Assembly: GCA_039683575.1 (NCBI GenBank) | Contig: JBDKRC010000235.1 | Location: forward strand, 4,100-68,099 | Source: Armatimonadia bacterium | GTDB lineage: Bacteria > Armatimonadota > Zipacnadia > Zipacnadales > UBA11051 | DNA: 64,000 bases | Direction of reading: 5' to 3' | Shown: piece by piece, positions 1-34,657 of the stretch | How positions within the stretch are numbered: the stretch's first letter is position 1 | Layout: each line of letters starts with the position of its first letter | Made by a program: the position numbers and the translations under genes | Notes under the pieces: generated by a model | Told to the model about the DNA's origin: nothing | Database searches by the model: none | What the model saw: only the letters and a program-made list of their open reading frames with translations

Positions 1-3000
1 CAGCAGATATCGTAGTCTCCATCTGTCAGCCGCTCAAGTGCGGCCAGAACGCTCTCACGATTCTCCTGTTGCACGAGGCCCTTGCTGGCGACTAGGCGCT
101 GCAGTTGCAGCCACCAGTAACGCTGGTCCGGACGTGCATCATCGCCTCCGGCCGCGTCTTCACAACAGGGCAGGAACACCTCGACGAGATGGTCTAGGCC
201 ATTCTCGAGTTGTAGCCGCGCCTCGTCCAGATAGTAGTCCGGCTGGCGGGCGAGCTTGCACTCAAAGAGCCGCGCGTTGAGCTGCAGCCGTCCGTCCTCA
301 CTCCGGAGAACCACTAACCAGAGAAGGTCGGGGCGCGTAGAGGTAAGTGAAGTGTCGAACCAATGTTGGTATGCGTCAAGGGAGATCAGCTGGTCGCAGA
401 TGGCGTCCGCTGGCGCATGTAGGAGCTTCCTAGTCAGGGCGTATGCCATAAAGTCGTGAATGTGCTGTCCGAGCCCCGTAGCTCGTACCAGCGACAGGCC
501 GGACAACTGCTGGGCTTCTCGCAGCACGCTCTCGGCCACCGTGTCGTAGGTGGCTGCGTCCCAGCCGCCGTAGAGATCCCTGATGGCCGGCTTGAGTCGG
601 CGCAGAATGTCACTCAGCCGGAACTGCTCGGTTGAGACAGTGTAGTTTGCTTCTCCGTGGGAGCCGACCCCGGATCCGAACCCGATGATCTCGCGCACGG
701 CGGCGCCGGAGGCGGCGTCCCCATCTCCCGCCCTACAGGACAGCAAGCGCTCGTCCACGCATGGGTCAATGCAGACGACCCAGTCGGCTCTCTGATGTAG
801 CCCGTCAACCACTGTCTGCCACGGCGCATAGTCTCCGCTACCCATCACCAGGTGATGGGCCTCGGGTACCGCATCGGGATGGCGCAACCGCGCCATGATC
901 TCCGTGTACTCGCTACCTAGCAGGAACTGGCGGTTACTGAGCACCCGCTCGCGACGCAGCATCTGTCCCGGGTCACGACTGGCACAGAAGGGCTTCTCTA
1001 GCACGGGGAACTTGAGCGTCCTCTTGAGCGCGTAGTACTCGGGGACCGTCTCGAACCTGCCGCCCTCGTCACCAGCGGCCATGAAGCCGTTCAGGATAAC
1101 GACGTCGACATCCAGGCTGGCAAGCAGCGGCAGGAACTGTTGCTCCCGCTCTCGTCTCTTCTGCCCATCGCTTCGCGCCGTCGCCAGCAGGCGGTGTGCC
1201 GCGGAAAGCTCGACACTCCGGTAGTGTTTCAGCGAGGCCTGGCTTTCGGCCGCTTCCCAACGGGCCCGCCACTCGCTGAGCCACGTTTTCACTTCGCCTT
1301 CGTCACCGGACTCGCTGAGGATGGTCACAGACAGGGCATAGGGTGCCCTCCCCGGATCGCGCTTGTCGCACACCTCGCGCAGGTAGCCGTCGAGTGCCGC
1401 GATGAGTGGCTGCACGTCGCGGTTCTGGTACACCGCAAGGCTCAGGCCGTCATCGGCTTGTGGGTGCAGCTCCCGGTAGTCGCTCAGGATTCGCCTGATG
1501 AGAGTTGCCTCCCGGCTCTCACGAAACAGCTCGGCATCAGGGATGTCCTCCTCCTCGAAGGCGTCATAGCGCAGCAGCAAGCGGGTCGTCAGGCTGGCCT
1601 CACCAGGCTCTACGCACCCCAGCCGGTGCACAAACCCTTCGCCGCTCACGCTCGTGTCAAGCTTGCAGTCCTGGTTCACCAGCAGGCCGCAGAGCGGCGT
1701 GTACAGGGAAGCCAGATCGAGGTAGTTGCCCCAGACGATGTTGCGGAAGGATCGTGTGCCTGGAGCCCGCAACTCCCGGGCCGCCAGCCGGGGGAAATAC
1801 ACTCGCAGGTACTGGGCCTGCGCCTGGATCATCTCCAACAGCGCTGGATGAAGCAGCGTGACAATCGCGGAGGGTTCGAAACGCTCCCAGAACCACTCGT
1901 TGTCGTCGCGTTTGCGGTCGGCGATGAGGAGGAACGCGCGGAAGAGGAGCGGCCCGAGGAAGCTATGGCGCCCGGTCTCGTCGTGCAGGTAGTAGCGGGC
2001 CGCCTCGCGGTATGCATGGCTCAGAGGCTGCCAGGCGTCCAGCAGGGCCGCGTGGAGCCCGTGGTCACGCGCGTGCATCAGGAACTGCACGTACTGGCGC
2101 CCCAGCTCCTCGATCCGCCACAGCAGAGGGTCACTGGCGGGAAGGCCCGGAGCGTCGAGGAGGTTCAGAACGCGGCTGTCAGGGCTCTCCAGGCCCTGCT
2201 GCAGCACGCGGGTCGTCTCCTCCGCGTCCTTGGCCAGCATAAGCTCTTCGTAGTATGGCACCGTGAAGACAGGCACGTGGCACACCAGCGGATCCGCCAT
2301 TGCTCCCGCCGCCCATTCCAGCATCTCGTCTGCGATGCGGTAGGGATGGATCGCCGGGAGGCGCCAGGCGAACTGCCGCTCCACCGGCTTGCCCAGTCCA
2401 TCCCCATCGATGCTGACAGAGAAAACGAGCGAAGGCTCGGCGCTTCCCGCTGGCACACACCTGACCCAATCGCCGGTCAGCGCCACCTCCAGAGCCACCC
2501 CCCGGTCATCTCCCACCAGGTTGCTTAGCTCCAGACCGTCACGCAGCCATTCCTCGACACCGCCGAGGAAGCGGGCCAGCATCTGCCCTGCGTTCCACTC
2601 CTGGTCCTTCTTGGTGTCTCCCCCCAGGTCGTGCTTGAACTCGCTTGTGCGGATGCTAAGGCTCACCAGTGCTTCATGCGGCACAAGCCCTGCGCCTGCA
2701 GCCTCAGCCTTGTAGCTCTCCAGGGTCCGCCAGAGGCCCGTCAGCAGAACGTCGAGTGGGCCCCCGCTAAGCTTGCTCACCGTGTCGCGAGTCCTGGGCT
2801 TGCGGGGGCCCTTGAACCCGAGAATCTCATCGCGGATCGCCACGTAGTCGCAGCCCAGCAGGCGACCACGCAGTTCCGCACGGTTGCTCTGCGCGTACTC
2901 CTGAACTGCCTGCACGAACTGCCGGTTGTCCGCGAAGTCGCCCTTGGCGTCGGGAGAGAACCAGTCCTGTTCCGGCTGGTTCCCTTTCTCCTGGAGAAAC

Positions 3001-3776
3001 GCGTCGATGGCTCTGAGTGCCTTGTCGCGAGGGCGTGCCTCCATGAAAGCATCGTAGGAGTAGAAACCGACTGCGTCATCGAGATATGGGCCGAAAGAGA
3101 CGTGGCTGCCGAAGCGGTAGCCTGTGAAATGTGGCAGCCTGTGCAGACCGAGCGAGCGTAGCAGTAGTCTCTCAGCGTCACGACCATCCTGGCAGGCCGC
3201 CAGGTCCATCGTCTCCAGCAGGCTGCTAACTTGCAGAATGTCTGCCAGTCCCCGATCTACCAAAGGCTTGAGTACCTCGTCGAAACGCTGGTACGTGTCC
3301 GTCTCGTAGGCGATATGCGCGCCGGTCAGAACCTCCCGCACCCAGGGCGTGAAGCTGCCCTCCATTTCCTGCCCCCACACCACCTCCGGGCCGCAGTGGT
3401 GAAAGTCTGCGAGGCCGCTGCGGTCGGTTATCAGGTCCACCCCCACCAGGACGGTCAAGGGACCTAGTCCGTTGCGGACCGCCGTCAGGCTGCCCTGGTA
3501 CTCACACCATTCATCTCGCTCCTCGATCCGCGCCGCTGCGCTTCGCTCGGCTTCTCGAACCGGCTGCCCCCACTGCTTCCGCAGCTCTCTGGCTATCTTG
3601 AACAACGGCCGTGGGAGCCCTGGGCCTGCCAGCCACTCGTCCTCCAGCAGCCGGCCGACTTCCAGTGTGGCCTCGGCGGGCAACGCCGGAATGACCACCA
3701 GGACAGCGTCATCCGTTGCCTGTCCGGCGGCCTGATCGCGGATGTAGCGGCATACCGAACGCGCGAAGAGCTTCAT
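1..3776 (-). CDS. Large uncharacterised protein, partial (at least 1258 aa; 3' end beyond window start). Last gene of the defence operon.
   Basis: Minus-strand frame with ATG at 3776-3774 overlaps the TGA stop (3775-3773) of the upstream gene. The track lists no stop-bounded minus ORF in this frame between 1 and 3776. Hand translation of the segments checked (3776-3701, 1199-1131) gives an uninterrupted sensible protein (MKLFARSVCRYIRDQAAGQATDDAV...). The 462-aa plus-strand ORF at 1140-2528 is its antisense shadow. No family recognised. Confidence 0.6.
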   Translation of the reverse strand, partial: MKLFARSVCRYIRDQAAGQATDDAVLVVIPALPAEATLEVGRLLEDEWLAGPGLPRPLFKIARELRKQWGQPVREAERSAAARIEERDEWCEYQGSLTAVRNGLGPLTVLVGVDLITDRSGLADFHHCGPEVVWGQEMEGSFTPWVREVLTGAHIAYETDTYQRFDEVLKPLVDRGLADILQVSSLLETMDLAACQDGRDAERLLLRSLGLHRLPHFTGYRFGSHVSFGPYLDDAVGFYSYDAFMEARPRDKALRAIDAFLQEKGNQPEQDWFSPDAKGDFADNRQFVQAVQEYAQSNRAELRGRLLGCDYVAIRDEILGFKGPRKPRTRDTVSKLSGGPLDVLLTGLWRTLESYKAEAAGAGLVPHEALVSLSIRTSEFKHDLGGDTKKDQEWNAGQMLARFLGGVEEWLRDGLELSNLVGDDRGVALEVALTGDWVRCVPAGSAEPSLVFSVSIDGDGLGKPVERQFAWRLPAIHPYRIADEMLEWAAGAMADPLVCHVPVFTVPYYEELMLAKDAEETTRVLQQGLESPDSRVLNLLDAPGLPASDPLLWRIEELGRQYVQFLMHARDHGLHAALLDAWQPLSHAYREAARYYLHDETGRHSFLGPLLFRAFLLIADRKRDDNEWFWERFEPSAIVTLLHPALLEMIQAQAQYLRVYFPRLAARELRAPGTRSFRNIVWGNYLDLASLYTPLCGLLVNQDCKLDTSVSGEGFVHRLGCVEPGEASLTTRLLLRYDAFEEEDIPDAELFRESREATLIRRILSDYRELHPQADDGLSLAVYQNRDVQPLIAALDGYLREVCDKRDPGRAPYALSVTILSESGDEGEVKTWLSEWRARWEAAESQASLKHYRSVELSAAHRLLATARSDGQKRREREQQFLPLLASLDVDVVILNGFMAAGDEGGRFETVPEYYALKRTLKFPVLEKPFCASRDPGQMLRRERVLSNRQFLLGSEYTEIMARLRHPDAVPEAHHLVMGSGDYAPWQTVVDGLHQRADWVVCIDPCVDERLLSCRAGDGDAASGAAVREIIGFGSGVGSHGEANYTVSTEQFRLSDILRRLKPAIRDLYGGWDAATYDTVAESVLREAQQLSGLSLVRATGLGQHIHDFMAYALTRKLLHAPADAICDQLISLDAYQHWFDTSLTSTRPDLLWLVVLRSEDGRLQLNARLFECKLARQPDYYLDEARLQLENGLDHLVEVFLPCCEDAAGGDDARPDQRYWWLQLQRLVASKGLVQQENRESVLAALERLTDGDYDIC

Positions 3777-5458
3777 GCTTGCCTCTCAGCTTCCACAAAA
3801 GGGTTCTGGACCAAGGAGTCGGCGTCAGACAGCCGCACGAGGAAGCCTGCCGCCTCCAGCATGCTCATGAACCAGGCCTCGGCCTCCCCGCCGAGGGTCA
3901 GCAGACAGGTTCTGCCACACCAGGCACTGGACGCACCCAACCGCCGGTCATCGACCGCGAGACCGTAGTGAGCGAACATCAGGTCCTTGAAACCCTCGTA
4001 GGTCACGCGCTTCCCGGGTGGCAGCAGTGACAGGACTAGGTAGCGCAGCAGATGCTCGTTGAGAACGAACCGGGCGCCAGGGCCCTGGCGGGGCACGATC
4101 AGCCCCAATCGCTTGGCCACCGATAGGAAGAGCTTGTGCCCATAGCGCGTGTCTGCCTCCGGGTACAGATCGTTGGCCTGCTTACCGTTTGCTTCGACGG
4201 CATACTTCCGTCTGGCCACGGCCTCCTCGATCTCGGGATGGCGCAGCGCCTCCCGGATGAGGCGCTGTAGCCGGCTGACACAGCGCTGCGAGATGCGTTT
4301 GGCGGGCGTGGAGTCGCCGCTCGCGTCGGAGAGCGCCCACACGAACCCCAGTGGTCCAGCATACTCCCGCACCTCCGCGGCCCACTCGACATAGCGGGCG
4401 CTCTGAGCGCACAGGCTGCGCAGGAGTTGGAGGGCGCAGGCTGTCTGCATCAACTCGAGCCGCTCGATAGGGTCGACGGCCGCTGCGCAGACGTGCACCA
4501 GTTCCAGTGCAAACAGCCACCCCTCGGGCCAGCCCTCGCTCGGGCACCAGCCGCAGTCGCTGAAACGGGGCTGCCCCCCGTCGTCACAATCGGTCTGCTG
4601 CGATGTCTCCGGCTCAATAACCTGATCAATGAAGCGTGCCAGTGCTCCAACACCCTCCGGACACTGACCGGTCAGTACCCGCCGCAGGCCTACCTCCAGG
4701 GCATCGCGCACTCGCTCAGGCGAGCGTTCGTCTTCGCCGAACCCGATGTCCGCTTCTTCACACCAGCCGCGGATCTGTTCAGGGCTCTGGCGCAGCGCGT
4801 TGCAGAGCTGCAGGTACAGCACCTCGCCACCGCGCGCCACGAAGCGATGCCGTCCGACTGTGAAGAACTGGGGCATCTTCTCCGCCACTTCCGCCCACGT
4901 CGTCACCCCCCTGCGCCGAGCCTCTGTCTCGTTCCATATGGTGTCACCGGCAAGTACTTCGGGGCAGATCGGCGTGAACGCCTGAGCACACCACGTCCGC
5001 CGCCCTCCTATAGCCTGGAACCCAAGGAAGAGGTTCTCCAGCGTCTGGACTACCTCGCGCGGTGAAACGCCCTCGGGCGGCCTCAGTCTCTCTGGACTCT
5101 GTAGCTCAGCCAGCAAGCTGATGTAATGCTCTCTGTGGCTGCTGTGGCGGCTCGCAAGCTTCGATGCCCCCATAAACGCGAACAGCTTCAGGTTGAGACG
5201 CGCTCGCGGGCTGTATCGCAACGGCTGGCCCTCGGGCCAATCGCATAGACTGTCCAACCCCGGTATTGTCCTGTCGACTGGCAGAGAGGTGTTTCCGATC
5301 CGCTTTGGTGAGGCGGCAACCAGCAGCAGCTCGATCAGCAGCTCCGGAACCGTCTGGTCCGCGAAAAAGCGCCGCCCGAACAACTGAACGGCGGGGTTGG
5401 CGTCCTGGCCCTCAGCCGACAGTATGTCGAGTGGGATGCTCGGGAAGGGCGTAGGCAT
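3773..5458 (-). CDS. Uncharacterised protein (about 561 aa), translationally coupled to the upstream kinase gene.
   Basis: ATG at 5458-5456 shares one nucleotide with the TGA stop of the 1553-aa gene (TGATG). The protein reads MPTPFPSIPLDILSAEGQ... The track ORF 3773-5614 extends N-terminally into the upstream gene. No recognisable motif. Confidence 0.6.
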   Translation of the reverse strand: MPTPFPSIPLDILSAEGQDANPAVQLFGRRFFADQTVPELLIELLLVAASPKRIGNTSLPVDRTIPGLDSLCDWPEGQPLRYSPRARLNLKLFAFMGASKLASRHSSHREHYISLLAELQSPERLRPPEGVSPREVVQTLENLFLGFQAIGGRRTWCAQAFTPICPEVLAGDTIWNETEARRRGVTTWAEVAEKMPQFFTVGRHRFVARGGEVLYLQLCNALRQSPEQIRGWCEEADIGFGEDERSPERVRDALEVGLRRVLTGQCPEGVGALARFIDQVIEPETSQQTDCDDGGQPRFSDCGWCPSEGWPEGWLFALELVHVCAAAVDPIERLELMQTACALQLLRSLCAQSARYVEWAAEVREYAGPLGFVWALSDASGDSTPAKRISQRCVSRLQRLIREALRHPEIEEAVARRKYAVEANGKQANDLYPEADTRYGHKLFLSVAKRLGLIVPRQGPGARFVLNEHLLRYLVLSLLPPGKRVTYEGFKDLMFAHYGLAVDDRRLGASSAWCGRTCLLTLGGEAEAWFMSMLEAAGFLVRLSDADSLVQNPFVEAERQA

Positions 5459-8400
5459 CAGTCGACCTCCAGACGATGCTCGCTGACTGTGAACCGTTGC
5501 TGGTGGAACATACGGTTGGTCCGCAGCCGCACCAGGATCAGGTCTGGGCCGGTCTCGGGTGGGTAGGCATGCAAGAGCTGACCCTTGAAGCGCTCCAGAC
5601 GGTCGGCGTAGCACGCCTGTAGCTGCCGACTGATCTCACCTCGCTGGCGTGCCATAACGTAGTCGAGGAAAGACAGGTTCAACACCAAACACACCGGCTC
5701 AAGCCCGTGCTCACTAGTGAGTTCCAGCTCTCGCCTCTTGGCGCCACTCCCTCCGTCCACCGTCTGCAACGACAGGTCGAAGTCACTCGTGGGCACCGAG
5801 GTCAGGACAATCTGGGCGCTTTGGCGCACCTGAGACGAGCGACGGCTCAAGGTCATATGCAGTCTCTCATCAGGCAGAGGCCCCTCGGGCAGGCGTACAC
5901 CGGTAAGGTGCTCTTGCAGCACCTGGAATAGCCGTGTCTGCAGGAGCTTGCGCTCACGGTAGTCCAGTTGGGTCGCCTGCTGCCATGCGGCATGCCGGAT
6001 GATCATGGGCGAATCGAGGTATGCCGTGAGGTAGCGCTCGCTTTCATCTTCGTCAAAGGCGTAGAGGAAGAACAGGACCCGGCGAGCCTGCTCGCGAGCA
6101 ACCGCCTGCGCCTCCTCCTCCGTGATCCCCCTACCGGCGCCCGCGTCGCATAGCTGTTGGAAGACATCCTGCAGTCCCTCGATCACCAAGGGGGTATTGC
6201 GTGTCTCTATCGACTGCCACAGGCGGCGTTCCCACGCCGCACAGAGCCGACGGCCGAACCCTTGAGCCCGCGCCAGGCGCACGGCCTGCAGCTGCAGGGC
6301 CGGGAGATCGATGTTCCTTCCGTCGTCGCCGAAAAACCTGTTGAAGAACATATATTCCGGTCCCGGCGAGGAGGCCGATCTGGCGACCATCGAGGCCGCC
6401 TGCGCACAACTGAGCCCGGAGGTCAGCATATATGCCAGGTGAGCCGACGCCTGCCGGAGGGTGAGACGCGCGCCGTACTCATACATACGGCGGTATGCCA
6501 GCAGAAGACGCTGGGTTACGAGACCGGGATGCTGCTGCAACAGTGCGGCATTCTGACGGATGGGGCATCCGCTTCGGCATGCCTTCCCCTCGCAGTCATC
6601 CCAGTTCGCGGGCTCCAGGAGACGGCGGAACAGCCTCTCCACCAGCGGGAGGTTGTCCATCTTGGAAAGGTTGATGATCTGTAGCGGGACCCCGTGGAAG
6701 TGCAGTGGCCTTGGTCCCGCCTGCTCCAGCGCGGTCAGAAGTGCGCTCTCGGTCTCCCGCCAGTCCGCCTTCAGCGCCTGCTCGTGCTGCCGGAAGGTCT
6801 CCAGCAAGGTACCGCTGTTCGAGACCAGCAGGAAGCGAGGCCCCCCCGCGGCCAGCATCTCCGCCAGCAACTCCGCACGCTCTTCCCCGTCCCACTCGCT
6901 TAGGTCCTTTACGAGCGACGTGTCCAATGCTTCGACTTGGCTGTCTTCCCTGCGTTCTAGGGGCGCCTGCAGCGGGCGATGGAGGTGCTGGTTGCGGAAC
7001 CGCTTCAGGCATTGCAGCAGGATGATGGACTTGCCGTCTCCAGCGTGGCCCGTTAGGACCACATGTGTCCGTGTTTCTCCTAGCAGAAGCTCGTTGATGA
7101 CATCCGCCAGAGGGTGGGCAACCTGTACCGATCCGAACAACGGGTTGGTCGCCTGCGACTCGGCCAGAGAGTTCTTGCTGCCACCCCGGCGACAGTGCAG
7201 GCTGTTGAGGTAGGCAACGAAGGCGTTGCCCTCAGGCTGCTCCTGTTCGAGCTGCGGGCCGGAGAACGGTGCAATCTGCTCGGGTTGATCACCGCGGGCT
7301 ATTTCAGTCGGGGCTTCCCGGTCTGTGCGGGTTGGTTGCACGTCTCGTATGGGGGTGAGAGCCGCTTCCTCGCGTTCGGGCACTCCAAGGGGCGCCAGAT
7401 CGGCCGCGGGTGTCTCAGCGCTCGCTTCGACCTGCTCTGCTTCGACCTGCGGAAGCGCTCGTTGCAGCGCCCGCAGCATCTCGGCGGCAGTGCCGAAACG
7501 CTTGTTGGCTTCTGTGGCTACAGCCTGGGCGAACCATAGCTCAAGCTCCGGGCCGAGGGCGCGTCGCTCCGGCGGCAGCGGCGCCGGCTGCACGCCAACC
7601 TGCAGCTGCGTGTACGGCGTCCGCCCACAGTACCACTCGAAAAGGGTCACTCCGAGAGCAAACAGATCTCCCTGTTCGCAGTAGTCGCGATCTTGCCCCG
7701 ACCGCAAGTCCGGCGGCACGTAGCCCTCAGTGCCCTGGTATGGCGCAATCTTCGGGAAGCTGGCGCATCCAAAGTCCACGATGACTGGCAGCCGGCTGTC
7801 GGTAAGCAGGATGTTCTCAGGCTTGATGTCGTTGTGCAGGATGGGCTCAGCACCGTCGTCGCCCCGGTGGCCATGCAGGGCCGCCAGCGCTTCCAGGAGC
7901 TGTGTTGCCCAGGCTGCGAACTGATCAAGGTCAGGCAGTAACCCGGCGCTGATCTCGTTCCGCAGACTCCGCTCGGAAAGCCGCTGGAAGGCGATGTAGA
8001 AGCGTCCGTCCCCTTCCCAGGTGCTGTGATTCTCCACCCGGACGATCCCGGGGTGGTGCACGGCTCCGGCAAACTGCTGCTCCTCGAGCCCGTGCCACTG
8101 CGGCACATCTCGGCCAAACAGCTTCACGACCACCAGTCGGCCTCTTGGGCCGACAGCCCGGTACAGTTGCGCCTCTACCCCCTGCTTGATGAGACACTCG
8201 ATCTCGTAGAGGTCATTGCGGGTGCCTGGCTCCAGGACCGGGTTCAGCACGGGAAGCCGCGGTGGGGTATCGTCGCCAGCCAGGCGCGCAAGCACTGCCG
8301 CTGCCGTAGCAAGACGCTGGGAGGGTTCTTGACGGACCAAGTCCGAGACCAACGCGCGCGCCCGTGCGGACACTCCCACCAGGGCCTCCGCTTCAACCTC

Positions 8401-10119
8401 GGCCAAGCCCCCGCCGGTCTTCTCCAGGTCCGTCGAGCAGGCAAACGGCGGCCTGCCCGTAAGCAGCTCGAAGAGAACCACCCCGAGACTGAACAGGTCG
8501 GCCGCCTCAGTGAGGTCCCCTCCGTAGTAGACCTCGGGGGCGATGTAGGGTGATCTGGGCAGTCTCTCGGCGTCCAGAATCACCGTCTGATGCTCCTCCT
8601 CCAGACGATAGGAAAGGTCGAAGTTGGTCAGCTTCGGCACCCCGCCAGCCATCACGACGTTCTCGGGGGAGAGAGCACGATGGATCACGTCTCGCTCGTG
8701 ACTTGCCTGCAGACCCTGAAGCACTCCCTCTGCCACTGTGAGAGCGTCTTGTTCCTGCAGCGGTTCGCGATCCTGAAGCCGGTCTCTAAGCGTTCCACTC
8801 TCCGACCAGTCACTGCCCTCAACCAGGTAGCCCATCTCGCTGGGAATGCGCCAGACCTTGAGAATGTTCGGATGATCCCCGATGGCCAGCACAGATTCGA
8901 GCGCCCCTTGGGCTCGTCTCCAGAGCTCCTCTCTCTCCTCCCCCGAGCCGGGCGGAGGCGGGAAGAACACGCGAAGGCGGCTCAGTCTGCGGCGCCCAGC
9001 GCCGGTTGGCCGGGCAATCACCTCGGCGCGGTCCTCACTCTGGTACAGCCGCTCCACCACCTCATACCCGGGGAACGCGTAGTCGCGGGGCGGGTTGGGG
9101 GTGGTGAGTTCCTCCAGGTAGTCACAGAAGGCCTTGACCTGCGCTTCCTGCAGAATGGTTCCCTTGCGTTCGCGTTGCCGCTTGAGGTAGGCGATCAGTG
9201 ACTTAGTGCCATCGAAGGTAGGATTGCTGGTAGTCGTGTCCGGGTCTGCAGCCCCGTTCACGGTGGCTTCAGGGTTCGTCAGCACTACGACCGACTCCAC
9301 GAATACTTCGGGGAATATGGCGAAACCACGGTCGTACATCCCACGAAGCAGCTTGGCCTTGTGCGAGTTGCCAAGGTGCGGATCGGGACGACACGAGGAA
9401 CGGTTCAGCAGCCAGGAGTAGGGACGAATGTCGATCTGCCCGCTCCAATGCTTCAGTTCCACCACGTAGATACCGAACGGGCACACCAGGATCAGATCAG
9501 TCTCAAAATAGCGATTGGACTGGCGGTCGTGGATCTGACGGTTTGCCAGGGCATAGCCAAGTTCCTGGGTAGTCAGGCGCTTGCAGATGTCCTCGATCGC
9601 CGCGGCCTCGTGGGGGAATGCCCCGGGTGATGTCCCAGTCACTATGGTGCCCGCGGGGCCGCCAGCCGCATTGCTCCCCTCCCTGACAGTCGTCAGGCGG
9701 CTGATGATCTCATAATCGACCCGTTGGCGGGTTGCCTCCACTTGAAGAAAATCGAATACTTCGCCGTCCAGTTGAGCGTGGCTTACGAGCTCGCTGAGAG
9801 CTGCCGGCGAGCCAACGGAGGTGGTGCGAGCCAACTCAGCTTCCTTGCCATCACACGGCACAAGTTCCCAAAAGCTGGAGCTGCGGAGGTGGAAGAACGG
9901 TGCCAGCGGCCGGTCTCGATCATTGGGCCCGGCATACGTGGCGAATACCTCGGTGAAGCACTCCCGGAACTCTGCGTTGAAGAACACGCATCCGTCCCGG
10001 ACGCGCCCCCTCCGGATGAGCTCAATCACGGCCAGCATAGCTAAGTACTTGTGCGGCTTGAACATAGGGCCAGGCTGCCCCAGATCCCTGAGCTCGCTGA
10101 TGAAGTCGTCGATGGACAT
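5458..10119 (-). CDS. PglW-like multidomain protein: N-terminal uncharacterised domain, NERD nuclease-related domain, pseudokinase, Ser/Thr protein kinase, P-loop NTPase (1553 aa).
   Basis: NERD-like block LILVCPFGIYVVELKHWSGQIDIRPYSWLL. Kinase-like domain 1 lacks the catalytic Asp (VIHRALSPENVV, NFD instead of DFG, but APE present: SPYIAPEVYYG). Kinase domain 2 has VVVKLF (beta-3 Lys), HNDIKPENILL and DFGCA. Walker A is VVLTGHAGDGKSIILL. 14-bp gap to the upstream cysteine desulfurase. Confidence 0.8.
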   Translation of the reverse strand: MSIDDFISELRDLGQPGPMFKPHKYLAMLAVIELIRRGRVRDGCVFFNAEFRECFTEVFATYAGPNDRDRPLAPFFHLRSSSFWELVPCDGKEAELARTTSVGSPAALSELVSHAQLDGEVFDFLQVEATRQRVDYEIISRLTTVREGSNAAGGPAGTIVTGTSPGAFPHEAAAIEDICKRLTTQELGYALANRQIHDRQSNRYFETDLILVCPFGIYVVELKHWSGQIDIRPYSWLLNRSSCRPDPHLGNSHKAKLLRGMYDRGFAIFPEVFVESVVVLTNPEATVNGAADPDTTTSNPTFDGTKSLIAYLKRQRERKGTILQEAQVKAFCDYLEELTTPNPPRDYAFPGYEVVERLYQSEDRAEVIARPTGAGRRRLSRLRVFFPPPPGSGEEREELWRRAQGALESVLAIGDHPNILKVWRIPSEMGYLVEGSDWSESGTLRDRLQDREPLQEQDALTVAEGVLQGLQASHERDVIHRALSPENVVMAGGVPKLTNFDLSYRLEEEHQTVILDAERLPRSPYIAPEVYYGGDLTEAADLFSLGVVLFELLTGRPPFACSTDLEKTGGGLAEVEAEALVGVSARARALVSDLVRQEPSQRLATAAAVLARLAGDDTPPRLPVLNPVLEPGTRNDLYEIECLIKQGVEAQLYRAVGPRGRLVVVKLFGRDVPQWHGLEEQQFAGAVHHPGIVRVENHSTWEGDGRFYIAFQRLSERSLRNEISAGLLPDLDQFAAWATQLLEALAALHGHRGDDGAEPILHNDIKPENILLTDSRLPVIVDFGCASFPKIAPYQGTEGYVPPDLRSGQDRDYCEQGDLFALGVTLFEWYCGRTPYTQLQVGVQPAPLPPERRALGPELELWFAQAVATEANKRFGTAAEMLRALQRALPQVEAEQVEASAETPAADLAPLGVPEREEAALTPIRDVQPTRTDREAPTEIARGDQPEQIAPFSGPQLEQEQPEGNAFVAYLNSLHCRRGGSKNSLAESQATNPLFGSVQVAHPLADVINELLLGETRTHVVLTGHAGDGKSIILLQCLKRFRNQHLHRPLQAPLERREDSQVEALDTSLVKDLSEWDGEERAELLAEMLAAGGPRFLLVSNSGTLLETFRQHEQALKADWRETESALLTALEQAGPRPLHFHGVPLQIINLSKMDNLPLVERLFRRLLEPANWDDCEGKACRSGCPIRQNAALLQQHPGLVTQRLLLAYRRMYEYGARLTLRQASAHLAYMLTSGLSCAQAASMVARSASSPGPEYMFFNRFFGDDGRNIDLPALQLQAVRLARAQGFGRRLCAAWERRLWQSIETRNTPLVIEGLQDVFQQLCDAGAGRGITEEEAQAVAREQARRVLFFLYAFDEDESERYLTAYLDSPMIIRHAAWQQATQLDYRERKLLQTRLFQVLQEHLTGVRLPEGPLPDERLHMTLSRRSSQVRQSAQIVLTSVPTSDFDLSLQTVDGGSGAKRRELELTSEHGLEPVCLVLNLSFLDYVMARQRGEISRQLQACYADRLERFKGQLLHAYPPETGPDLILVRLRTNRMFHQQRFTVSEHRLEVD

Positions 10120-10132: not shown

Positions 10133-11287
10133 TCAAGGTCTGGTCGAGGTCAGCGCGACCGCCGTTGCCAATTCGCCTACCGCGACGGACACATCTTCCG
10201 CAGTGTTGTAGCGACCGAATGAGAGACGAATCGTCTGTTCCGCCTGGGCCCGCGGGAGCCCCATTGCCAGTAGCACGTGGGATGGCGCCAGAGTGCCTGT
10301 GCCGCAGGCCGAGCCCTGGCTGATGCAGATGCCGCTCGCTCGGGAGATGACCAAGTCTGAGGCGCTACCATGGATCGTGATGCTACTGGTCCCAGGCAAC
10401 CGCGGAGCACCTGTCCCGTTGACGGCCATACAGTCCAGACGCCCGGCCAATTCCGCCTCAAACCGGTCGCGCAACGCAGCCGTACGATTGGGCTCAGAGG
10501 CGAGGTCGGCGCTGCAAAGGCGGCAGGCTCTCCCGAAACCGACTATGCCTGGTACGTTCAGCGTGCCAGGGCGCAGACCGTCCTCTTGGCCTCCGCCGAA
10601 CTGCAGCGGCGTTAGCAGCGAGCGCATCTCGCCGTCACGGACGTAGAGAGCGCCGACCCCTTTGGGCCCATAGAGTTTGTGCGCGCTGAAGGAGGCCAGA
10701 TGCACTGGTAGCGCATGCAGGTCCAGCGGGACCTTGCCCAGCACCTGGGCGCCATCCGTGTGCATAAAGGCACCGCACCTCCTGGCCAGCTCGCCTATCT
10801 CCGCTACCGGCTGAACCGTCCCAACCTCGTTGTTACCACCCTGCACGGAAACCAAGAGGGTCTTCTCGTCGATCAGAGACGCCGCAGCCTCAAGATCCAC
10901 ACTGGCGTTTCGGTCCACGGGCAGCAGGACCACCTGAAAGCCCTGTTCGGCCAGATAGTCGCAAGGCCCAAGGATGGACTTGTGCTCCACCGCGGATACG
11001 ATGATCTTGCGCCGACCGGGGTTAGAGCGAGCCAAGCCCAGCAGGGCCAGGTTGTTGCTCTCTGTGGCCCCGGAGGTGAAGATGATCTGCCCCGGGCTAC
11101 AGCCGGCCAGCGCAGCAACTGCTTCGCGGGCGGCCGCCACGGCAGTAGCGGCAGCGCGCCCCATCACGTGCGGGCTGCCGGCATTGCCGAACTCAGTGGT
11201 CAGGAAAGGCAGCATCGCCTCCACGACCTGGGGGGCGCAGCGCGTAGTGGCGTTACAGTCGAGATAGACAGGCGCCTGTCGTTGCAT
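10133..11287 (-). CDS. Cysteine desulfurase (class V aminotransferase; IscS/NifS/DndA/SspA-like).
   Basis: PLP-lysine motif SAHKLYGPKGVGALYV, N-terminal VYLDCNATT, and GSACGTG near the C-terminal active-site Cys region. Likely start is the Met of MQRQAPVYLD. Confidence 0.85.
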   Translation of the reverse strand: MQRQAPVYLDCNATTRCAPQVVEAMLPFLTTEFGNAGSPHVMGRAAATAVAAAREAVAALAGCSPGQIIFTSGATESNNLALLGLARSNPGRRKIIVSAVEHKSILGPCDYLAEQGFQVVLLPVDRNASVDLEAAASLIDEKTLLVSVQGGNNEVGTVQPVAEIGELARRCGAFMHTDGAQVLGKVPLDLHALPVHLASFSAHKLYGPKGVGALYVRDGEMRSLLTPLQFGGGQEDGLRPGTLNVPGIVGFGRACRLCSADLASEPNRTAALRDRFEAELAGRLDCMAVNGTGAPRLPGTSSITIHGSASDLVISRASGICISQGSACGTGTLAPSHVLLAMGLPRAQAEQTIRLSFGRYNTAEDVSVAVGELATAVALTSTRP

Positions 11288-11358
11288 ACAGCAAGTCCTC
11301 AAGGAGATCTCCGCCAGCCTGGCGGGTGCCCACCACGGTTAGCTCCCGATGGGTTCCT

Positions 11359-12189
11359 TCAGAGAGCGCAGATCAGGCAGCCCCGATCTGCGCTGTCGTC
11401 CGCATCGTCGAGTACCTCGCCAAGCGAGACACCGGCGCGGAAGCCGCCTGCACGTTCGCGACGCTGCTCGAACTCAGCCTCGATCTGTGCTACGCGTTCC
11501 GGTCGCGAGAGCTCCTCCAGGCTTTCACCCTGCACCCAGGTGTAGCGCTGTCCTGTGTCAGTGTCGGCCTTCTCATACTCCATCGCCTGCTTGAAGAGAC
11601 CCGGGTGTTCTCTCATCAGCCCAACCCACTCGCGGCGTTGCTGGAAGAAGCAGAAGTAGCACCCCGAACGCGAGCGCCAGCGGTAGTAGTCTGGGAGGCC
11701 CAGGCCGCTCTCCTCCAGTATCCGCAGCACACCGGCTCTGTTAATGCCCTCCTCGATGAACGGGAAGCACGCGACTATGTTGGGCTTCGTTGACAGATAG
11801 CCCTTCCTGTGCCGCTCGTCTGCACGAATGCCCACGTAGGTGACGGCGGGGGTCTCACCGATGAACTTCTCAAATGGCTTCAGTTTGAGATACTCCGTGC
11901 ACCACCGGATCTGCGGTGATGGCAGATAGCCACGACGTATGCTGAGGAGGTCATCGAAGCCCATCCCGTCGTGCTTCAGGCGGATGATCGGTCTGCCGAG
12001 ATAGACTTCCAACCGGTCGAGGTAGTCGTACGTCTCGTCAAGCTCCTTGTCCGTATCACAGAACACGTACTCCATATCCGGCATGCGGTCACGCAGGTGG
12101 ATGGCCAGCGCTGTGCTGTCCTTGCCGCCTGAGAGCGAGAGGATATGCCGGGTGTTTCCGGCTTGCTGAGGCGTGCCGCTGTCACTCAT
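11359..12189 (-). CDS. PAPS-reductase-family ATP pyrophosphatase (DndC/SspD/BrxP-like, short form about 276 aa).
   Basis: PP-loop motif ILSLSGGKDSTALAIHL, with C-terminal Cys pairs (CYFCF, CLIC). Start taken at MSDSGTPQQ, overlapping the ATPase stop by a few nt. Confidence 0.75.
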   Translation of the reverse strand: MSDSGTPQQAGNTRHILSLSGGKDSTALAIHLRDRMPDMEYVFCDTDKELDETYDYLDRLEVYLGRPIIRLKHDGMGFDDLLSIRRGYLPSPQIRWCTEYLKLKPFEKFIGETPAVTYVGIRADERHRKGYLSTKPNIVACFPFIEEGINRAGVLRILEESGLGLPDYYRWRSRSGCYFCFFQQRREWVGLMREHPGLFKQAMEYEKADTDTGQRYTWVQGESLEELSRPERVAQIEAEFEQRRERAGGFRAGVSLGEVLDDADDSADRGCLICAL

Positions 12190-15100
12190 CTTCTGTGGTG
12201 TCTCCGATCTTGCCCGCGGCAAGCTTGAGGGCCGCCTTCACGACATGTGCAGGCAGCTTCGCTATCGCGGGATTGAGCGCTTTCATGATCTTGTCCGACA
12301 GAGCCTGCGCGCGCTGCATCTCGGCGGGCAGGAGTTCCGGCAGGTCCAACGTGGTAACCGAGGCGCTCCGCATCGTAGCGGCTGCGCTTCTCAGCAGAGC
12401 CCCCACCATCTCCGCTGCTTCCGGGAAACGCTTGCGGTCGAGGTCGCTCCAGTTGCGTGGGGGGCGTTGAGCGACAAGCGCAAGCACCGTCTCGACCCCC
12501 TCAGCTGTGTCGTCGACCTCCTGCATACGCGCCAGCAGAGCCGCTAACCGAGGTTCTCTCACCCACGGCCGTAGGCGGTCGCCGAGGCCTCGCAGCTCAT
12601 CCCAGCCCGCCTCCCCTGCTGGTAAGTTGCAGGCGCGTAGTAGAGTGTCACGGGCCGAGGCGATGGCTGTAGGCGCGACTGCCCCCCATTCCCGAAGGCA
12701 CCCGTTAAGGCGCTCAAAGAACTTCTGCACCTGGCCGGTTTCCGTCTCGTCAGCCCCGAACGCAGGGAAGCCCAGCGCGCCAGGGAGATCCGCGAAAAGC
12801 AGTTGCTCCGGGGATCGTGCCGCGGCAAAGGCCTCGCGCAGAGCAACTACCGGCGCGCTCAGTTCCTGAGTGTGCCAGGCCAGTTCCGGGAGGCTGCGCA
12901 CCATCCGGAACAAGGCCCGCACCACCGGCAGAGTCGCTGAGTTCACCTGCAGACTGCGAGCCAGTCGCCCTACCACCTCCGCGCGGGCGCCTGTAACCTG
13001 CCCACCCGCTATGGCGTACAGCTCCGGCCTGCGCATAAGCACTTCGAAGTCCGCGATGCCGACCTCCGGAAGGAATGTGCCTTCGCGGTACAGTGTCGTC
13101 TCATCTGGGTAAGCCAGCATAAAGGCACACAGCAGCACCGGGTGCAGGCCCTCTGGTACGCCAATGGGCGGGGCGGCCAAGCCGGCGAAGAGTCCATCGA
13201 GTTGGACCGGCTCCAGCCCATCGGCCAGAATCTGCCGGTCTAGGAACTCCCAGACCGAAGCGAGAGCAGCATCGCTCGTACGGTCGGGAGGGTGGAAGCC
13301 CCAGCGGCACGAGTCGTCCTCTCGGTGCAAGCCGGTGACCAGAAGGACGGACTCGTACATGCTGCGCTCAGGAGGGTAGCCTTCAAGCCCCAACAGGGGC
13401 TCCCCCGCTCGCGTCAGCATCCTCTCGATCAGGTTGCGGCGGGCAGCGGTTGCGGCCGCGGACAGAGTCCTCCTTGCGATGAGCTCGTTGCGGATGCGTG
13501 GTGACTTGGGGAAGAGGCTGTCACAGACGTCTGAGACCAGCTTGGACACGTCAGTGGGTGTGCGGACGGCCTTCTGCTGTCCGCCCCAGAACCAGAGACA
13601 CTGGCTGCCACGCGGCGCCGGCCGTGGATCCAGGAGGCCATCGAGGTCCCGCAGCAATACCTGCTCCGCCTCGCTGATGCGGATTGAGATCTCTCGACGG
13701 GCCACTCGGTCGTCGCGAAGCTCTGGGGTGTTGTCCCAGACCCAACGCAGCGCAGCTAGCTCCTGAACAGCCGCTCGCAGCTCACCTATCTCTTGCGGCA
13801 CCGCCACCAACAGGTCGTGCCGCGCCCCGGCACCGGCCGTGGCGACGGCGACGAACTCATCAGACCGCTTGAGCGAATAGGCCAGGCACACTGCGACGTG
13901 GGCGGGGGCCGTCTCGGAGGCTTTCCAGTCCAGAGACAGTTCAGATGGGTCGTCGAGGTAAGCCACGGCCAAGTGCCGCAAGGCGCCAGTCTCGAAGCTG
14001 TGCCGGCGTGCGACCAAAGGACGCGGGGGCAGGTAGTGCCTGATGTTCTCCGCCAGGCTGAGCCTGTCCCGCGTGTGGGTAGCGCCCTGCTCAAGACGCT
14101 CATCGATGTCGACGTCACTGCCTTCCCAGATCTGAAAGGCGTCTGTGAATGTGCGGAACGTCAGGACAGACTTCTCACGCAACTGAGCGAGGCTGTCTTC
14201 TAGTTTTGCCGGCGGCTTGGTCTGGTCTGAGAGAACGAGTGAAAGTACCTGCTGATGGGCCTGTAGGTGGCTGAACTCGCCCAGAGCATTGAGGATCCCC
14301 GTTGACTTCACGAGCGCCTTGTGGAGATCGGTCAGGTCGCTTCTGCGGTCAAGCACGTCCACAGCCTCAAGCCAACGCTTCGCCTGCGGGTGCCGGTACA
14401 GGCCGGTCCCGAAGTTCGCGACGAAGTAGTCGAAAAGGTCAGGTAGCCGGACGAAGGCAGGCGTCCCCCCCTCCGCTGTGTGAGCCCGGAGAAAGTCCTG
14501 CAAGGCATACGGTTCCTGGCTGCTCAGATAGGCGAAGAGAGAGCGTTCGTTCTGCGCAAAGCGCCGGAACAGGTAGGGCAAGGCCACTAACGTAACGGGA
14601 TGGAGTGGATAGGCTCTGACGGCCAGGCGCTCGAAGTCGCGGGGGGGCATCCCCGGAGGAGCGACGACTGGTGCGGCGGCGCGCGCCACCGCCTGCACTC
14701 GCTTCGCCAGTGACGCCGGCAGTTCCCGCCCGGTCGGCCGGAGAGCGCTCGCGATCATCCGCACAACCTGATCAACCGGCTCGAGGAACGGAACGTCGTG
14801 GAAGCGCCCGCCTATCTTCTCCCATTCGCGACGGGTTACCGCATCCAGGTGCTGGCCGTATTCCTCGAACGCCTGATGCAGGAAGCCGAGGAAGAGAACT
14901 GGCTCGACGCCGCTGCGGCTGGCGTATTCGGCGAGTTCCTGCAGCACGAACACATCACCGCGCCGAGGGTCTCGGGCTGCGTACTCGAAGAGCTTGCCCA
15001 GCTCGTCAACAATGACTAGGAGGCCTGTGTAACCTTGTGCTCGGGCAACAGCGGCCAGCTCCTGCAGGGCACCGACGACGTCCCGGCTGTCGGCAAAGGC

Positions 15101-15610
15101 CCCCGCTTGCAGGGCCTTCAGCAGCGCGGCCAAACGCTTCCTTAGTCGCGCGGTAGCGGCGCCCTCCAGCCCTGCGATAGCAGCCAACATGCCCTGTAGC
15201 AGGCAGGCCGCAGCCGGAGCCCGCCGGGCCGTCACCAGCACTGGCAGCATAGTGCCGTTGCCATTGGCGCGAAGGCATCCTTGAGCAAGAGTCTCGGCGA
15301 GGTCGGGGGCAGCCAGCAAAAGCTTCTGCCTCGCCTGGTCCCCTGCGGCGTCTTTGAGGCAGAGCAGGCGCGTCAGGAACACGGCGAAGGCTGATTTGCC
15401 GACGCCATAGGGGCCGGTAATCGTCCAGGCTCGCGCTACGGAGCCCTCACTTAGCCCCTCTGCGAGACGGTGCAAGGCCTGCCGTGCATTGGCCGTCAGG
15501 ACATAGTCGCCGTTAGTACCGTTGCCGCGCGCATCCTGCTCGAGGCTAACCGACCGCAGGAACCTACGCCCGACCTCCACGTACTGATCCAGCGACTTCT
15601 GCATCTCCAT
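12182..15610 (-). CDS. Large P-loop ATPase, SspC/BrxC (PglY)-like (1142 aa).
   Basis: Walker A WTITGPYGVGKSAFAVFL (about aa 68) and Walker B GLLVIVDELGKLF (about aa 200), then a roughly 900-aa helical body. Its start shares one nt with the stop of the upstream gene. Family assignment is by architecture and context, not by alignment. Confidence 0.6.
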   Translation of the reverse strand: MEMQKSLDQYVEVGRRFLRSVSLEQDARGNGTNGDYVLTANARQALHRLAEGLSEGSVARAWTITGPYGVGKSAFAVFLTRLLCLKDAAGDQARQKLLLAAPDLAETLAQGCLRANGNGTMLPVLVTARRAPAAACLLQGMLAAIAGLEGAATARLRKRLAALLKALQAGAFADSRDVVGALQELAAVARAQGYTGLLVIVDELGKLFEYAARDPRRGDVFVLQELAEYASRSGVEPVLFLGFLHQAFEEYGQHLDAVTRREWEKIGGRFHDVPFLEPVDQVVRMIASALRPTGRELPASLAKRVQAVARAAAPVVAPPGMPPRDFERLAVRAYPLHPVTLVALPYLFRRFAQNERSLFAYLSSQEPYALQDFLRAHTAEGGTPAFVRLPDLFDYFVANFGTGLYRHPQAKRWLEAVDVLDRRSDLTDLHKALVKSTGILNALGEFSHLQAHQQVLSLVLSDQTKPPAKLEDSLAQLREKSVLTFRTFTDAFQIWEGSDVDIDERLEQGATHTRDRLSLAENIRHYLPPRPLVARRHSFETGALRHLAVAYLDDPSELSLDWKASETAPAHVAVCLAYSLKRSDEFVAVATAGAGARHDLLVAVPQEIGELRAAVQELAALRWVWDNTPELRDDRVARREISIRISEAEQVLLRDLDGLLDPRPAPRGSQCLWFWGGQQKAVRTPTDVSKLVSDVCDSLFPKSPRIRNELIARRTLSAAATAARRNLIERMLTRAGEPLLGLEGYPPERSMYESVLLVTGLHREDDSCRWGFHPPDRTSDAALASVWEFLDRQILADGLEPVQLDGLFAGLAAPPIGVPEGLHPVLLCAFMLAYPDETTLYREGTFLPEVGIADFEVLMRRPELYAIAGGQVTGARAEVVGRLARSLQVNSATLPVVRALFRMVRSLPELAWHTQELSAPVVALREAFAAARSPEQLLFADLPGALGFPAFGADETETGQVQKFFERLNGCLREWGAVAPTAIASARDTLLRACNLPAGEAGWDELRGLGDRLRPWVREPRLAALLARMQEVDDTAEGVETVLALVAQRPPRNWSDLDRKRFPEAAEMVGALLRSAAATMRSASVTTLDLPELLPAEMQRAQALSDKIMKALNPAIAKLPAHVVKAALKLAAGKIGDTTEDE

Positions 15611-25568: not shown

Positions 25569-25823
25569 TCCGTCCCGTCCGCGTTGGGACGTGGTCGGGT
25601 GTCGCTGATTCGGAGCTGGCCAGCAGGGCATCGCAGGTCCCGCTGAGGTAGCGTTACAGAGATGATCCGGGCACCCCGCGCCGACGTGGGTACGGACTGG
25701 GGAGGCCGTTGCATACGACGTCCAATCCCACATGAGACTTTCGCCTTGGGCCCGGGCATCGTATGATAGACCGCGGCAATGGACCCAAAGCCGATTGCCA
25801 GCAACTGGAGGAGGTACCCGCAG

Positions 25824-32025: not shown

Positions 32026-32039
32026 CGGTCTTCACACTC

Positions 32040-33260: not shown

Positions 33261-33311
33261 CTGGGTCTCCTCTCGTCCCCGGGGTGGCATCGCTCCTCTG
33301 GCTGTGCGGCT

Positions 33312-33354
33312 GGGAGAGGGGTGGAGGAGACCCGGGGGGTCGACACCCCTCTCC
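33312..33354. promoter_or_regulatory. Perfect 12-bp inverted repeat (GGGAGAGGGGTG-N19-CACCCCTCTCCC) about 50 bp upstream of the replication-initiator start. Operator, origin element or terminator.
   Basis: Read directly from the sequence. Confidence 0.45.
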
Positions 33355-34594: not shown

Positions 34595-34657
34595 GGGGTG
34601 GTTACAGGTGCCCGCAATGATATGATGATATGGTTACGACGTCGCCCTTTTCGCCGC

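What the first reader, a model, noticed from the sequence alone, without database searches (positions are those of the whole stretch)
1..5458. Two large orphan proteins translationally coupled downstream of the kinase
Both start codons overlap the preceding stop codons (CTGATGCC at 5456-5461; GCATGAAG at 3773-3778). This implies stoichiometric co-expression with the kinase.

The protein of at least 1258 aa has no Walker, methyltransferase, HNH or PD-(D/E)xK motif that I can spot.

By position they should be the effector or target-recognition components of the system.
Basis: partly seen in the sequence, partly recalled or inferred. Interest (0 to 1): 0.7.

Follow-up and report, generated by a model that had tools for sequence, protein, structure and literature searches.

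The report
SspG/SspH-like restriction subunits, not orphans
The two "orphan" proteins are the DNA-binding (G) and nuclease/motor (H) subunits of a phosphorothioate-linked restriction module, a divergent relative of SspFGH/DndFGH; the "kinase" upstream is its F subunit with a sulfur-reading domain, a NERD nuclease and two kinase domains fused on.

Summary
Both stop/start overlaps exist (TGATG 5460-5456; ATGA 3776-3773), and the 561-aa and >=1258-aa ORFs are intact.

The proteins are not orphans, and the system is not BREX. The operon reads sspB-sspC-sspD-sspA, then the "kinase", then B, then C.

- **Kinase protein (F subunit):** sulfur-binding domain (PDB 8H0L, E=9e-28), NERD, pseudokinase, kinase, then an SspF-like P-loop core.
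- **C (H subunit):** 100% identical to the first 1258 aa of a 1769-aa Armatimonadia MAG protein. Its missing tail is a HerA/FtsK ATPase matching DndH (7ES4, 1.5e-12).

About 40 loci from many phyla keep F-G-H plus two further genes (SspB-like, SspC-like) that lie beyond the window edge. The overlaps are conserved too.

The likely mechanism is DndFGH/SspFGH-like translocation and nicking of DNA that lacks phosphorothioate. The domain fusions were already noted computationally (NAR 2024). Verdict: a variant of a known kind, of moderate interest.

The parts
15613..16734 (-). sspB (DUF4007; DNA-binding subunit of the PT-writing module)
   Evidence: Pfam DUF4007 9.7e-84; PADLOC SspB 1.5e-88
12185..15610 (-). 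sspC (BrxC-like ATPase, 1142 aa)
   Evidence: PADLOC SspC E=0, 1057 bits, full length
11362..12222 (-). sspD (PAPS-reductase family; exact start codon uncertain)
   Evidence: Pfam PAPS_reduct 9.6e-9; PADLOC SspD 3.1e-109
10136..11302 (-). sspA (cysteine desulfurase)
   Evidence: Pfam Aminotran_5 4.4e-78; PADLOC SspA 2e-135
5458..10119 (-).
9700..10119 (-). F aa 1-140: sulfur-binding domain (phosphorothioate-DNA reader)
   Evidence: An 11-sequence profile hits PDB 8H0L SBDHga at E=8.7e-28. The cavity residues H25/K26/P76/H79 of SBDHga (PMC10602919) align with H23/K24/P74/H77, which are invariant or nearly so in the family.
9277..9585 (-). F aa 179-281: NERD nuclease-related domain (D208 ... E221-L-K223)
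   Evidence: Pfam NERD 1.3e-12; motif read from the sequence
8275..8982 (-). F aa ~380-615: pseudokinase (HRALSPEN, catalytic Asp replaced, no DFG)
   Evidence: Pfam Pkinase, two stretches; motif scan
7420..8217 (-). F aa ~635-900: active-looking Ser/Thr kinase (VVVK666, HNDIKPEN 762-769, DFG 782-784)
   Evidence: Pfam Pkinase 1.4e-51; NCBIfam MAD6 349 bits and PglW 178 bits, both below cut-off; motifs
5461..7242 (-). F aa 960-1553: SspF-like P-loop core (Walker A GHAGDGKS 1024-1031) plus a family-specific C-terminal half
   Evidence: PADLOC SspF 7.5e-27 over model positions 32-260 of 600; DndF only 0.0044
5456..5460 (-). TGATG stop/start overlap between F and G
   Evidence: the overlap is conserved in related loci
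3773..5458 (-). Protein B = G subunit (561 aa), SspG-like with a DndG fold, multi-winged-helix DNA-binding protein
3773..3776 (-). ATGA start/stop overlap between G and H
   Evidence: conserved as -4 nt in most related loci
1..3776 (-). Protein C = H subunit, first 1258 of 1769 aa (SspH/DndH-like), cut by the window edge
   Evidence: 100% identical to P0001, 1769 aa, Armatimonadia MAG. PADLOC SspH 1.3e-17 on aa 983-1234. Full length: DndH 3.9e-60, DUF87/TrwB ATPase; PDB 7ES4 DptH 1.5e-12.
3..479 (-). H aa ~1100-1258: restriction-endonuclease (PD-(D/E)xK) domain. D1134, H1138, P1149-D1150 (nt 332-327), E1172-x-K1174 (nt 263-255), Q1189.
   Evidence: Invariant in 15/15 and 31/31 relatives, including proteobacterial ones at 22-35% identity. 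Predicted strands place PD at the start of one strand and ExK at the end of the next. The region falls within the SspH model match and, in L038, within the DndH model match.

Best explanation
Proteins B and C are the G and H subunits of an FGH-type restriction module paired with the SspABCD phosphorothioate (PT) writer encoded just upstream.

Shown here:
- The operon is sspB-C-D-A followed by F-G-H.
- F is SBD-NERD-pseudokinase-kinase-SspF core.
- G has the DndG fold.
- H has a methyltransferase-like fold, a conserved PD...ExK nuclease site and a C-terminal HerA/FtsK ATPase.
- The cassette and its gene overlaps are conserved across phyla and continue with SspB-like and SspC-like genes.

Inferred by analogy with the experimentally studied SspFGH and DndFGH:
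- SspABCD marks host DNA with PT at a short motif.
- F, G and H assemble into one complex. G's winged helices and H's DNA-binding modules engage DNA. H's HerA/FtsK motor translocates, and H's PD-ExK site nicks or cuts DNA that lacks PT, which blocks phage replication.
- PT on host DNA restrains the complex. In this variant the mark is probably read directly by the sulfur-binding domain on F.
- The NERD and kinase modules on F are probably back-up or regulatory effectors.
For: - Operon content.
- F: SspF core 7.5e-27; Walker A and kinase motifs; SBD vs PDB 8H0L at 8.7e-28 with conserved sulfur-cavity residues (PMC10602919).
- H: SspH 1.3e-17; DndH 3.9e-60; 7ES4 at 1.5e-12; invariant PD...ExK plus Walker A/B; methyltransferase-like fold, as described for DndH (PMC10853773).
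- Synteny and conserved overlaps in ~40 loci.
- Function of the reference systems: SspFGH damages non-PT DNA and all three genes are essential (PMC8092258). DndFGH forms a 2:2:1 complex with binding, translocation and nicking activities (PMC10470545).
Against: - Matches to canonical SspG/SspH models are partial: the C-terminal ~160 aa of G and ~250 aa of H.
- NCBIfam DptF/G/H and Pfam do not recognise B, the F core or the N-terminal 1258 aa of C.
- The N-terminal ~780 aa of H has no assigned function, and the model is only moderate (pLDDT 70, pTM 0.55).
- The nuclease fold was not recovered by structure search.
- Four of 22 loci with a full upstream flank lack sspBCD within 10 kb, so dependence on PT is not guaranteed.
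- There is no experiment on any member of this clade.
- The roles of the SspB-like/SspC-like pair, the kinases and NERD are unknown.
Confidence: 0.8

Rival explanations
1. PT-activated logic, as in SspE. Binding of the F subunit's sulfur-binding domain to PT on host DNA switches the complex on rather than restraining it, and the complex then attacks nearby unmodified DNA.
For: SspE, the other partner of SspABCD, needs PT to stimulate its NTPase and nicking (PMC8092258). F carries a genuine PT-reading domain. All characterised SBD proteins use PT binding to trigger cleavage (PMC10602919).
Against: Canonical SspFGH and DndFGH are toxic without PT, so PT protects there (PMC8092258). Many family members lack the SBD altogether (L005, L029, L030, L033, L038), so it cannot be the core switch.
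Confidence: 0.2
2. Stand-alone 'HerA/FtsK capture' system. F-G-H plus the SspB-like/SspC-like pair recognises invader DNA by itself, independently of PT, and its adjacency to sspABCD reflects defence-island clustering.
For: Four of 22 loci (L009, L019, L037, L040) have no sspBCD within 10 kb upstream. Rakesh et al. argue that DndFGH is often decoupled from its modification module (PMC10853773). The cassette carries its own SspB-like/SspC-like pair.
Against: 17 of 22 loci have sspD, and usually sspB and sspC, directly upstream on the same strand. A PT-reading SBD is fused to F in many members.
Confidence: 0.1
3. Abortive-infection device. G and H are sensors, and the real output is the F subunit's kinase (phosphorylating host or phage proteins) and NERD nuclease (degrading cell DNA).
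For: F has an active-looking kinase (HNDIKPEN, DFG) and an intact NERD D...ExK. It resembles PglW, MAD6 and PD-T4-6 defence kinases.
Against: Several family members have no NERD or kinase modules, yet G, H and H's catalytic residues stay invariant. That points to H as the core effector and the fusions as accessories, as proposed in PMC10853773.
Confidence: 0.1
4. BREX type 2 / Pgl components. B and C are PglZ/BrxHI-like parts working with a PglW kinase.
For: The N-terminal half of F resembles PglW (PADLOC PglW 1.8e-52).
Against: There are no PglZ, PglX, BrxHI or alkaline-phosphatase hits for B or C. NCBIfam PglW scores 178 bits against a cut-off of 990. The operon encodes SspA-D, and B and C match SspG/DndG and SspH/DndH instead.
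Confidence: 0.02

Closest known systems
SspABCD-SspFGH of Vibrio anguillarum FF-93 (Wang et al., mBio 2021, PMC8092258)
   Same: A three-gene F-G-H cassette sits next to sspBCD. F has a Walker A motif, and H is ~1.7 kaa with a C-terminal FtsK/HerA-like ATPase. PADLOC SspF, SspG and SspH models all hit significantly.
   Different: Only parts of the models match: the N-terminal half of F, the C-terminal ~160 aa of G and ~250 aa of H. F carries a ~960-aa N-terminal extension (SBD, NERD, two kinase domains). Two more conserved genes (SspB-like, SspC-like) follow H. The H ATPase is closer to DndH models than to SspH models.
DndFGH / DptFGH of E. coli B7A (structures 7EXX, 7ES4; architecture in Rakesh, Aravind & Krishnan, NAR 2024, PMC10853773)
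   Different: It is paired with sspABCD, not dndABCDE. NCBIfam DptF/G/H do not hit. DndF matches only marginally (0.0044) and there is no DndG sequence hit (10% identity in the structural alignment).
PglW of BREX type 2 and MAD6 of MADS
   Same: The NERD + pseudokinase + kinase arrangement of the first ~900 aa of F (PADLOC PglW 1.8e-52, mad6 4.5e-60; NCBIfam MAD6 349 bits).
   Different: Both score below their family cut-offs (460 and 990 bits). The C-terminal half is an SspF core, not PglW's wHTH triad plus inactive STAND domain. The system has no PglX or PglZ.
Hga and other SBD-containing PT-dependent endonucleases (PMC10602919)
   Same: The N-terminal 140 aa of F is a close homolog of SBDHga (E=8.7e-28) with the sulfur cavity conserved. 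That paper noted a clade of SBDs fused to kinases.
   Different: Hga is a single-chain type IV-like enzyme that cuts PT-DNA. Here the SBD is part of a multi-subunit system encoded next to its own PT writer.

Membership tests
SspFGH (PT-linked restriction module) | Co-oriented F-G-H cassette adjacent to sspBCD | tested here: met
   sspB-C-D-A lies directly upstream on the same strand. The same holds in 17 of 22 related loci with a full upstream flank.
SspFGH (PT-linked restriction module) | SspF homology with a Walker A motif | tested here: met
   PADLOC SspF 7.5e-27; GHAGDGKS at aa 1024-1031.
SspFGH (PT-linked restriction module) | SspG and SspH sequence homology | tested here: met
   SspG 3e-14 and SspH 1.3e-17.
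SspFGH (PT-linked restriction module) | Full-length agreement with the canonical SspG and SspH models | tested here: not met
   Only aa 396-554 of B and aa 983-1266 of C align. Even gammaproteobacterial members of the clade match only partially.
SspFGH (PT-linked restriction module) | SspH C-terminal FtsK/HerA-like ATPase | tested here: met
   It lies outside the window but is present in the 100%-identical P0001: DUF87, TrwB, 7ES4 at 1.5e-12.
SspFGH (PT-linked restriction module) | Damages non-PT DNA; PT protects; all three genes are essential | not testable with these tools
   Needs phage and toxicity assays.
DndFGH / DptFGH | DndG multi-winged-helix fold | tested here: met
DndFGH / DptFGH | DndH order: inactive methylase, then REase, then HerA/FtsK | tested here: met
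DndFGH / DptFGH | N-terminal DndH modules (inactive SWI2/SNF2 domain, HTH, two beta-sandwiches, TRDs) | tested here: inconclusive
   Structure searches returned only methyltransferase-fold hits. The first 58 aa were not modelled.
DndFGH / DptFGH | Recognition by curated DptF/DptG/DptH family models | tested here: not met
   No NCBIfam hit for B, the F core or the C N-terminus. Full-length H hits only generic HerA/CedB/TraC-type models, far below cut-off.
DndFGH / DptFGH | Pairing with dndABCDE | tested here: not met
   The neighbours are sspA-D. DndC models hit SspD only weakly.
BREX type 2 / Pgl | PglZ phosphatase and PglX methyltransferase present | tested here: not met
   No such hits in the operon.
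BREX type 2 / Pgl | PglW equivalog | tested here: not met
   NCBIfam PglW 178 bits against a cut-off of 990, covering only the N-terminal half.

The most novel reading that the evidence does not exclude
The conserved five-gene cassette is a distinct PT-reading restriction machine. The cassette is F (with SBD, NERD and kinases), G, H, an SspB-like protein and an SspC-like ATPase. It would read the phosphorothioate mark directly through the sulfur-binding domain on F. It would use a reductase-less SspB'/SspC' pair as a 'reader' copy of the writer's DNA-scanning apparatus. A Ser/Thr kinase would be a second output. This logic has not been shown for SspFGH or DndFGH.
Probability: 0.2. Interest if true: 0.65.

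Novelty: new variant of a known kind. Interest (0 to 1): 0.4.

Why it matters
This result turns two "hypothetical proteins" into assignable subunits of a phosphorothioate-based defence system.

It also exposes an annotation gap. The clade has at least 321 representative clusters of the G subunit across bacteria and at least one archaeal MAG. Pfam and NCBIfam do not see it, and PADLOC's SspFGH models catch it only partially.

The variant offers a direct handle on an open question for PT systems: how FGH complexes tell PT-marked from unmarked DNA when PT occupancy is partial. Here a bona fide sulfur-binding domain is fused to the F subunit, and a second SspB/SspC-like pair is always present. Neither feature has been tested experimentally.

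Tried and rejected
- Exact-sequence contig look-ups for B and for P0001 found nothing on record. The full-length H came from the homolog search instead.
- A profile search of the B family against PDB sequences found nothing meaningful. Only the fold search linked B to DndG.
- Foldseek of the C model against the PDB gave no significant hit. The nuclease fold could not be confirmed structurally.
- tblastn of B against 72,556 plasmids gave no match.
- The supplement of PMC10853773 held as text did not list the taxa I looked for. I therefore could not verify that their 'DndF-kinase' set contains this clade.
- One literature search for MADS was too loose and returned plant papers. The MANTIS preprint proved irrelevant.
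- The BREX/Pgl reading was considered and rejected.
- I considered whether the invariant GFGSGVG block in H is a SAM-binding motif I. The model places it in a beta-hairpin at low confidence, so I left it unexplained.
Full report
**Observation**

All the relevant genes lie on the minus strand.

- The 1553-aa 'kinase' ORF (10119-5461) ends with TGA at 5460-5458. The next ORF starts with ATG at 5458-5456 (TGATG, 1-nt overlap).
- That ORF (protein B, 561 aa) ends with TGA at 3775-3773, overlapping ATG at 3776-3774 (ATGA).
- The third ORF (protein C) is open for 1258 codons to the window edge.
- SD-like GGAGG and GAGAGG sit 7 and 5 nt upstream of the two ATGs.
- Both starts coincide with the invariant first methionine of the family alignments.

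The described sequence features are therefore real.

**What surrounds it**

The four genes directly upstream are SspB (DUF4007), SspC (BrxC-like ATPase), SspD (PAPS-reductase family) and SspA (cysteine desulfurase). All have very strong PADLOC and Pfam matches. This is the single-strand DNA phosphorothioate (PT) writer. It is not BREX.

**The 'kinase' is a composite protein**

- **aa 1-140:** a sulfur-binding domain. An 11-sequence profile hits PDB 8H0L (SBDHga) at E=8.7e-28. The residues that form the sulfur cavity in that structure (H25, K26, P76, H79; PMC10602919) align with H23, K24, P74 and H77, which are conserved in this family.
- **aa 179-281:** a NERD domain.
- **aa ~380-615:** a pseudokinase (HRALSPEN, no DFG).
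- **aa ~635-900:** an active-looking kinase (K666, HNDIKPEN, DFG).
- **aa 960-1553:** an SspF-like P-loop core with Walker A GHAGDGKS. PADLOC SspF scores 7.5e-27, while DndF scores only 0.0044.

The PglW and MAD6 models match the NERD-kinase part but score well below their cut-offs.

**Protein B**

- Pfam and NCBIfam find nothing. PADLOC SspG models match the C-terminal ~160 aa at 3e-14.
- B has 664 homologs in the word-index search and 321 representative clusters in the exhaustive search. None carries a functional name.
- Distant members at 27-36% identity also hit SspG models, a few of them across the whole model.
- An AlphaFold2 model built on 45 sequences is confident (pLDDT 87.5, pTM 0.91).

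B is therefore the G subunit, a multi-winged-helix DNA-binding protein.

**Protein C**

- The window's 1258 aa are 100% identical to the start of P0001, a 1769-aa 'DUF87 domain-containing protein' from an Armatimonadia MAG.
- The missing 511 aa hold a HerA/FtsK/TrwB-type ATPase: Pfam DUF87 and TrwB_AAD_bind, PADLOC DndH 3.9e-60, and PDB 7ES4 (the DndH C-terminal domain) at 1.5e-12. Walker A and Walker B are invariant.
- Inside the window, aa 983-1234 match SspH models at 1.3e-17.
- This region contains R1148-P-D1150 ... E1172-C-K1174, flanked by D1134, H1138 and Q1189. P, D, E, K, D1134, H1138 and Q1189 are invariant in 31 of 31 relatives, including proteobacterial ones at 22-35% identity.
- In the AlphaFold model of aa 59-1258 (pLDDT 70, pTM 0.55), PD sits at the start of one strand and ExK at the end of the next. 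That is the classic restriction-endonuclease layout.

A methylase-like domain, then a REase, then a HerA/FtsK ATPase is the order described for DndH (PMC10853773). The absence of a Walker motif is simply an effect of the window edge.

**Conservation**

- Contig look-ups and a scan of species-representative genomes gave about 40 loci. They come from Bathyarchaeota, Bacillota, Planctomycetota, Acidobacteriota, Desulfobacterota, Latescibacterota, Verrucomicrobiota, Atribacterota and others. More distant members occur in Allochromatium, Caballeronia, Arsukibacterium and Marinobacter.
- A tblastn map shows F-G-H followed by an SspB-like (~280 aa) gene and an SspC-like (~1430 aa, intact P-loop) gene in every complete locus. 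In the window these two genes would lie beyond the left edge.
- The N-terminus of F varies: none, SBD only, NERD plus kinases, or SBD plus NERD plus kinases.
- sspD, usually with sspB and sspC, lies directly upstream in 17 of 22 loci with a full flank. It is absent within 10 kb in 4 of them.
- Gene overlaps are conserved: F>G -8 nt, G>H -4 nt, H>B' -8 nt in most loci.

**Mechanism**

For canonical SspFGH, all three genes are needed. The module damages non-PT DNA, is toxic without the PT writer, and blocks phage DNA replication (PMC8092258). DndFGH forms a 2:2:1 complex that binds, translocates and nicks DNA (PMC10470545).

By homology and architecture I infer the same core for this locus:

- G and parts of H bind DNA.
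- H's motor translocates and H's PD-ExK site cuts unmarked DNA.
- PT written by SspABCD marks self.

The SBD on F gives this variant a plausible direct reader of the mark. Whether PT binding restrains or activates the complex is open. The NERD and kinase modules are probably accessory effectors, as proposed computationally for 'DndF' fusions (PMC10853773), because members without them keep G and H intact.

Translational coupling is likely. Equal stoichiometry does not follow from it.

**Comparison and novelty**

- The locus passes the gene-order, Walker A, homology and ATPase tests for SspFGH. It fails full-length agreement with the canonical models.
- It shares fold and domain order with DndFGH. 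It is not recognised by the curated DptF/G/H models and is paired with ssp genes, not dnd genes.
- It fails every BREX type 2 test.
- The SBD-kinase fusion was noted in PMC10602919. The wHTH-NERD-kinase-DndF fusion was noted in PMC10853773. I found no paper that links them to SspG/H-like partners, that describes the two extra genes, or that tests this clade.

I rate it a new variant of a known kind, of moderate interest.

Noticed in passing
window 9700-10119 (-), aa 1-140 of the kinase protein: This is a genuine sulfur-binding (PT-DNA reader) domain, homologous to SBDHga (PDB 8H0L, E=8.7e-28) with the sulfur-cavity residues conserved. Pfam did not report it for the window protein. The closest relative, L043, carries only a 'faint' PF26340 DNA-SBD_ScoMcrA hit.
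   Followed up: yes
beyond the window's left edge; seen in L001 15252-20410, L002 15285-20447, L043 15306-20437: Two further conserved genes follow H in every complete related locus. One is a ~280-aa weak DUF4007/SspB-like protein, which overlaps the H stop by 8 nt. The other is a ~1430-aa protein with an SspC/BrxC-like P-loop N-terminus. No SspD-like gene follows them. Their role is unknown, and the SspFGH paper does not mention them.
   Followed up: partly
L043 20468-21958 and L002 20568-22037: A ~490-aa gene with a weak Methyltransf_23 hit follows the SspC-like gene in the two closest relatives (66% identical to each other). PADLOC does not hit it. Most other loci end before this position, so I could not assess its conservation.
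   Followed up: partly
window nt 624-779 (-), H aa 999-1050: An invariant block (WVVCIDPxVDE ... IGFGSGVGxHGEANYTxSTEQ) lies just upstream of the nuclease domain. D1008, G1032, G1036, G1038, G1041, N1044 and S1048 are conserved in 31/31 relatives. AlphaFold confidence is low here and the function is unknown.
   Followed up: partly
window 3773-5458 (-), protein B: Several cysteines are invariant across 45 homologs (C157, C219, C302-x-x-C305 in 'CGWCP', C341). This may be a structural metal site. It was not examined further.
   Followed up: no
window 30751-45114: This stretch looks like a mobile or defence island beside the Ssp locus. It holds an IstB-like ATPase (32025-30751, -), a C-5 cytosine DNA methylase (35764-34661, -), a tyrosine integrase (37797-36667, -) and a large serine recombinase (43654-45114, +). 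No tRNA gene occurs anywhere in the window.
   Followed up: partly
window 24264-26615 (+): Adjacent ORFs carry an AAA ATPase domain (24264-25565) and a Peptidase_M41 domain (25779-26615). Together they look like an FtsH-like protease split into two genes, or a divergent copy.
   Followed up: no
window 47940-55850 (+): A run of genes for an FGE-sulfatase-domain protein, two leucine-rich-repeat proteins and a 3-keto-disaccharide-hydrolase/LamG-like protein. They are unrelated to the finding.
   Followed up: no
L022 14406-15731; L028 11584-15185; L009 17773-18992: In some related loci the H gene or the B'-C' junction is interrupted by 1.2-3.6 kb of extra sequence. These may be insertions (mobile elements) within the cassette.
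   Followed up: no
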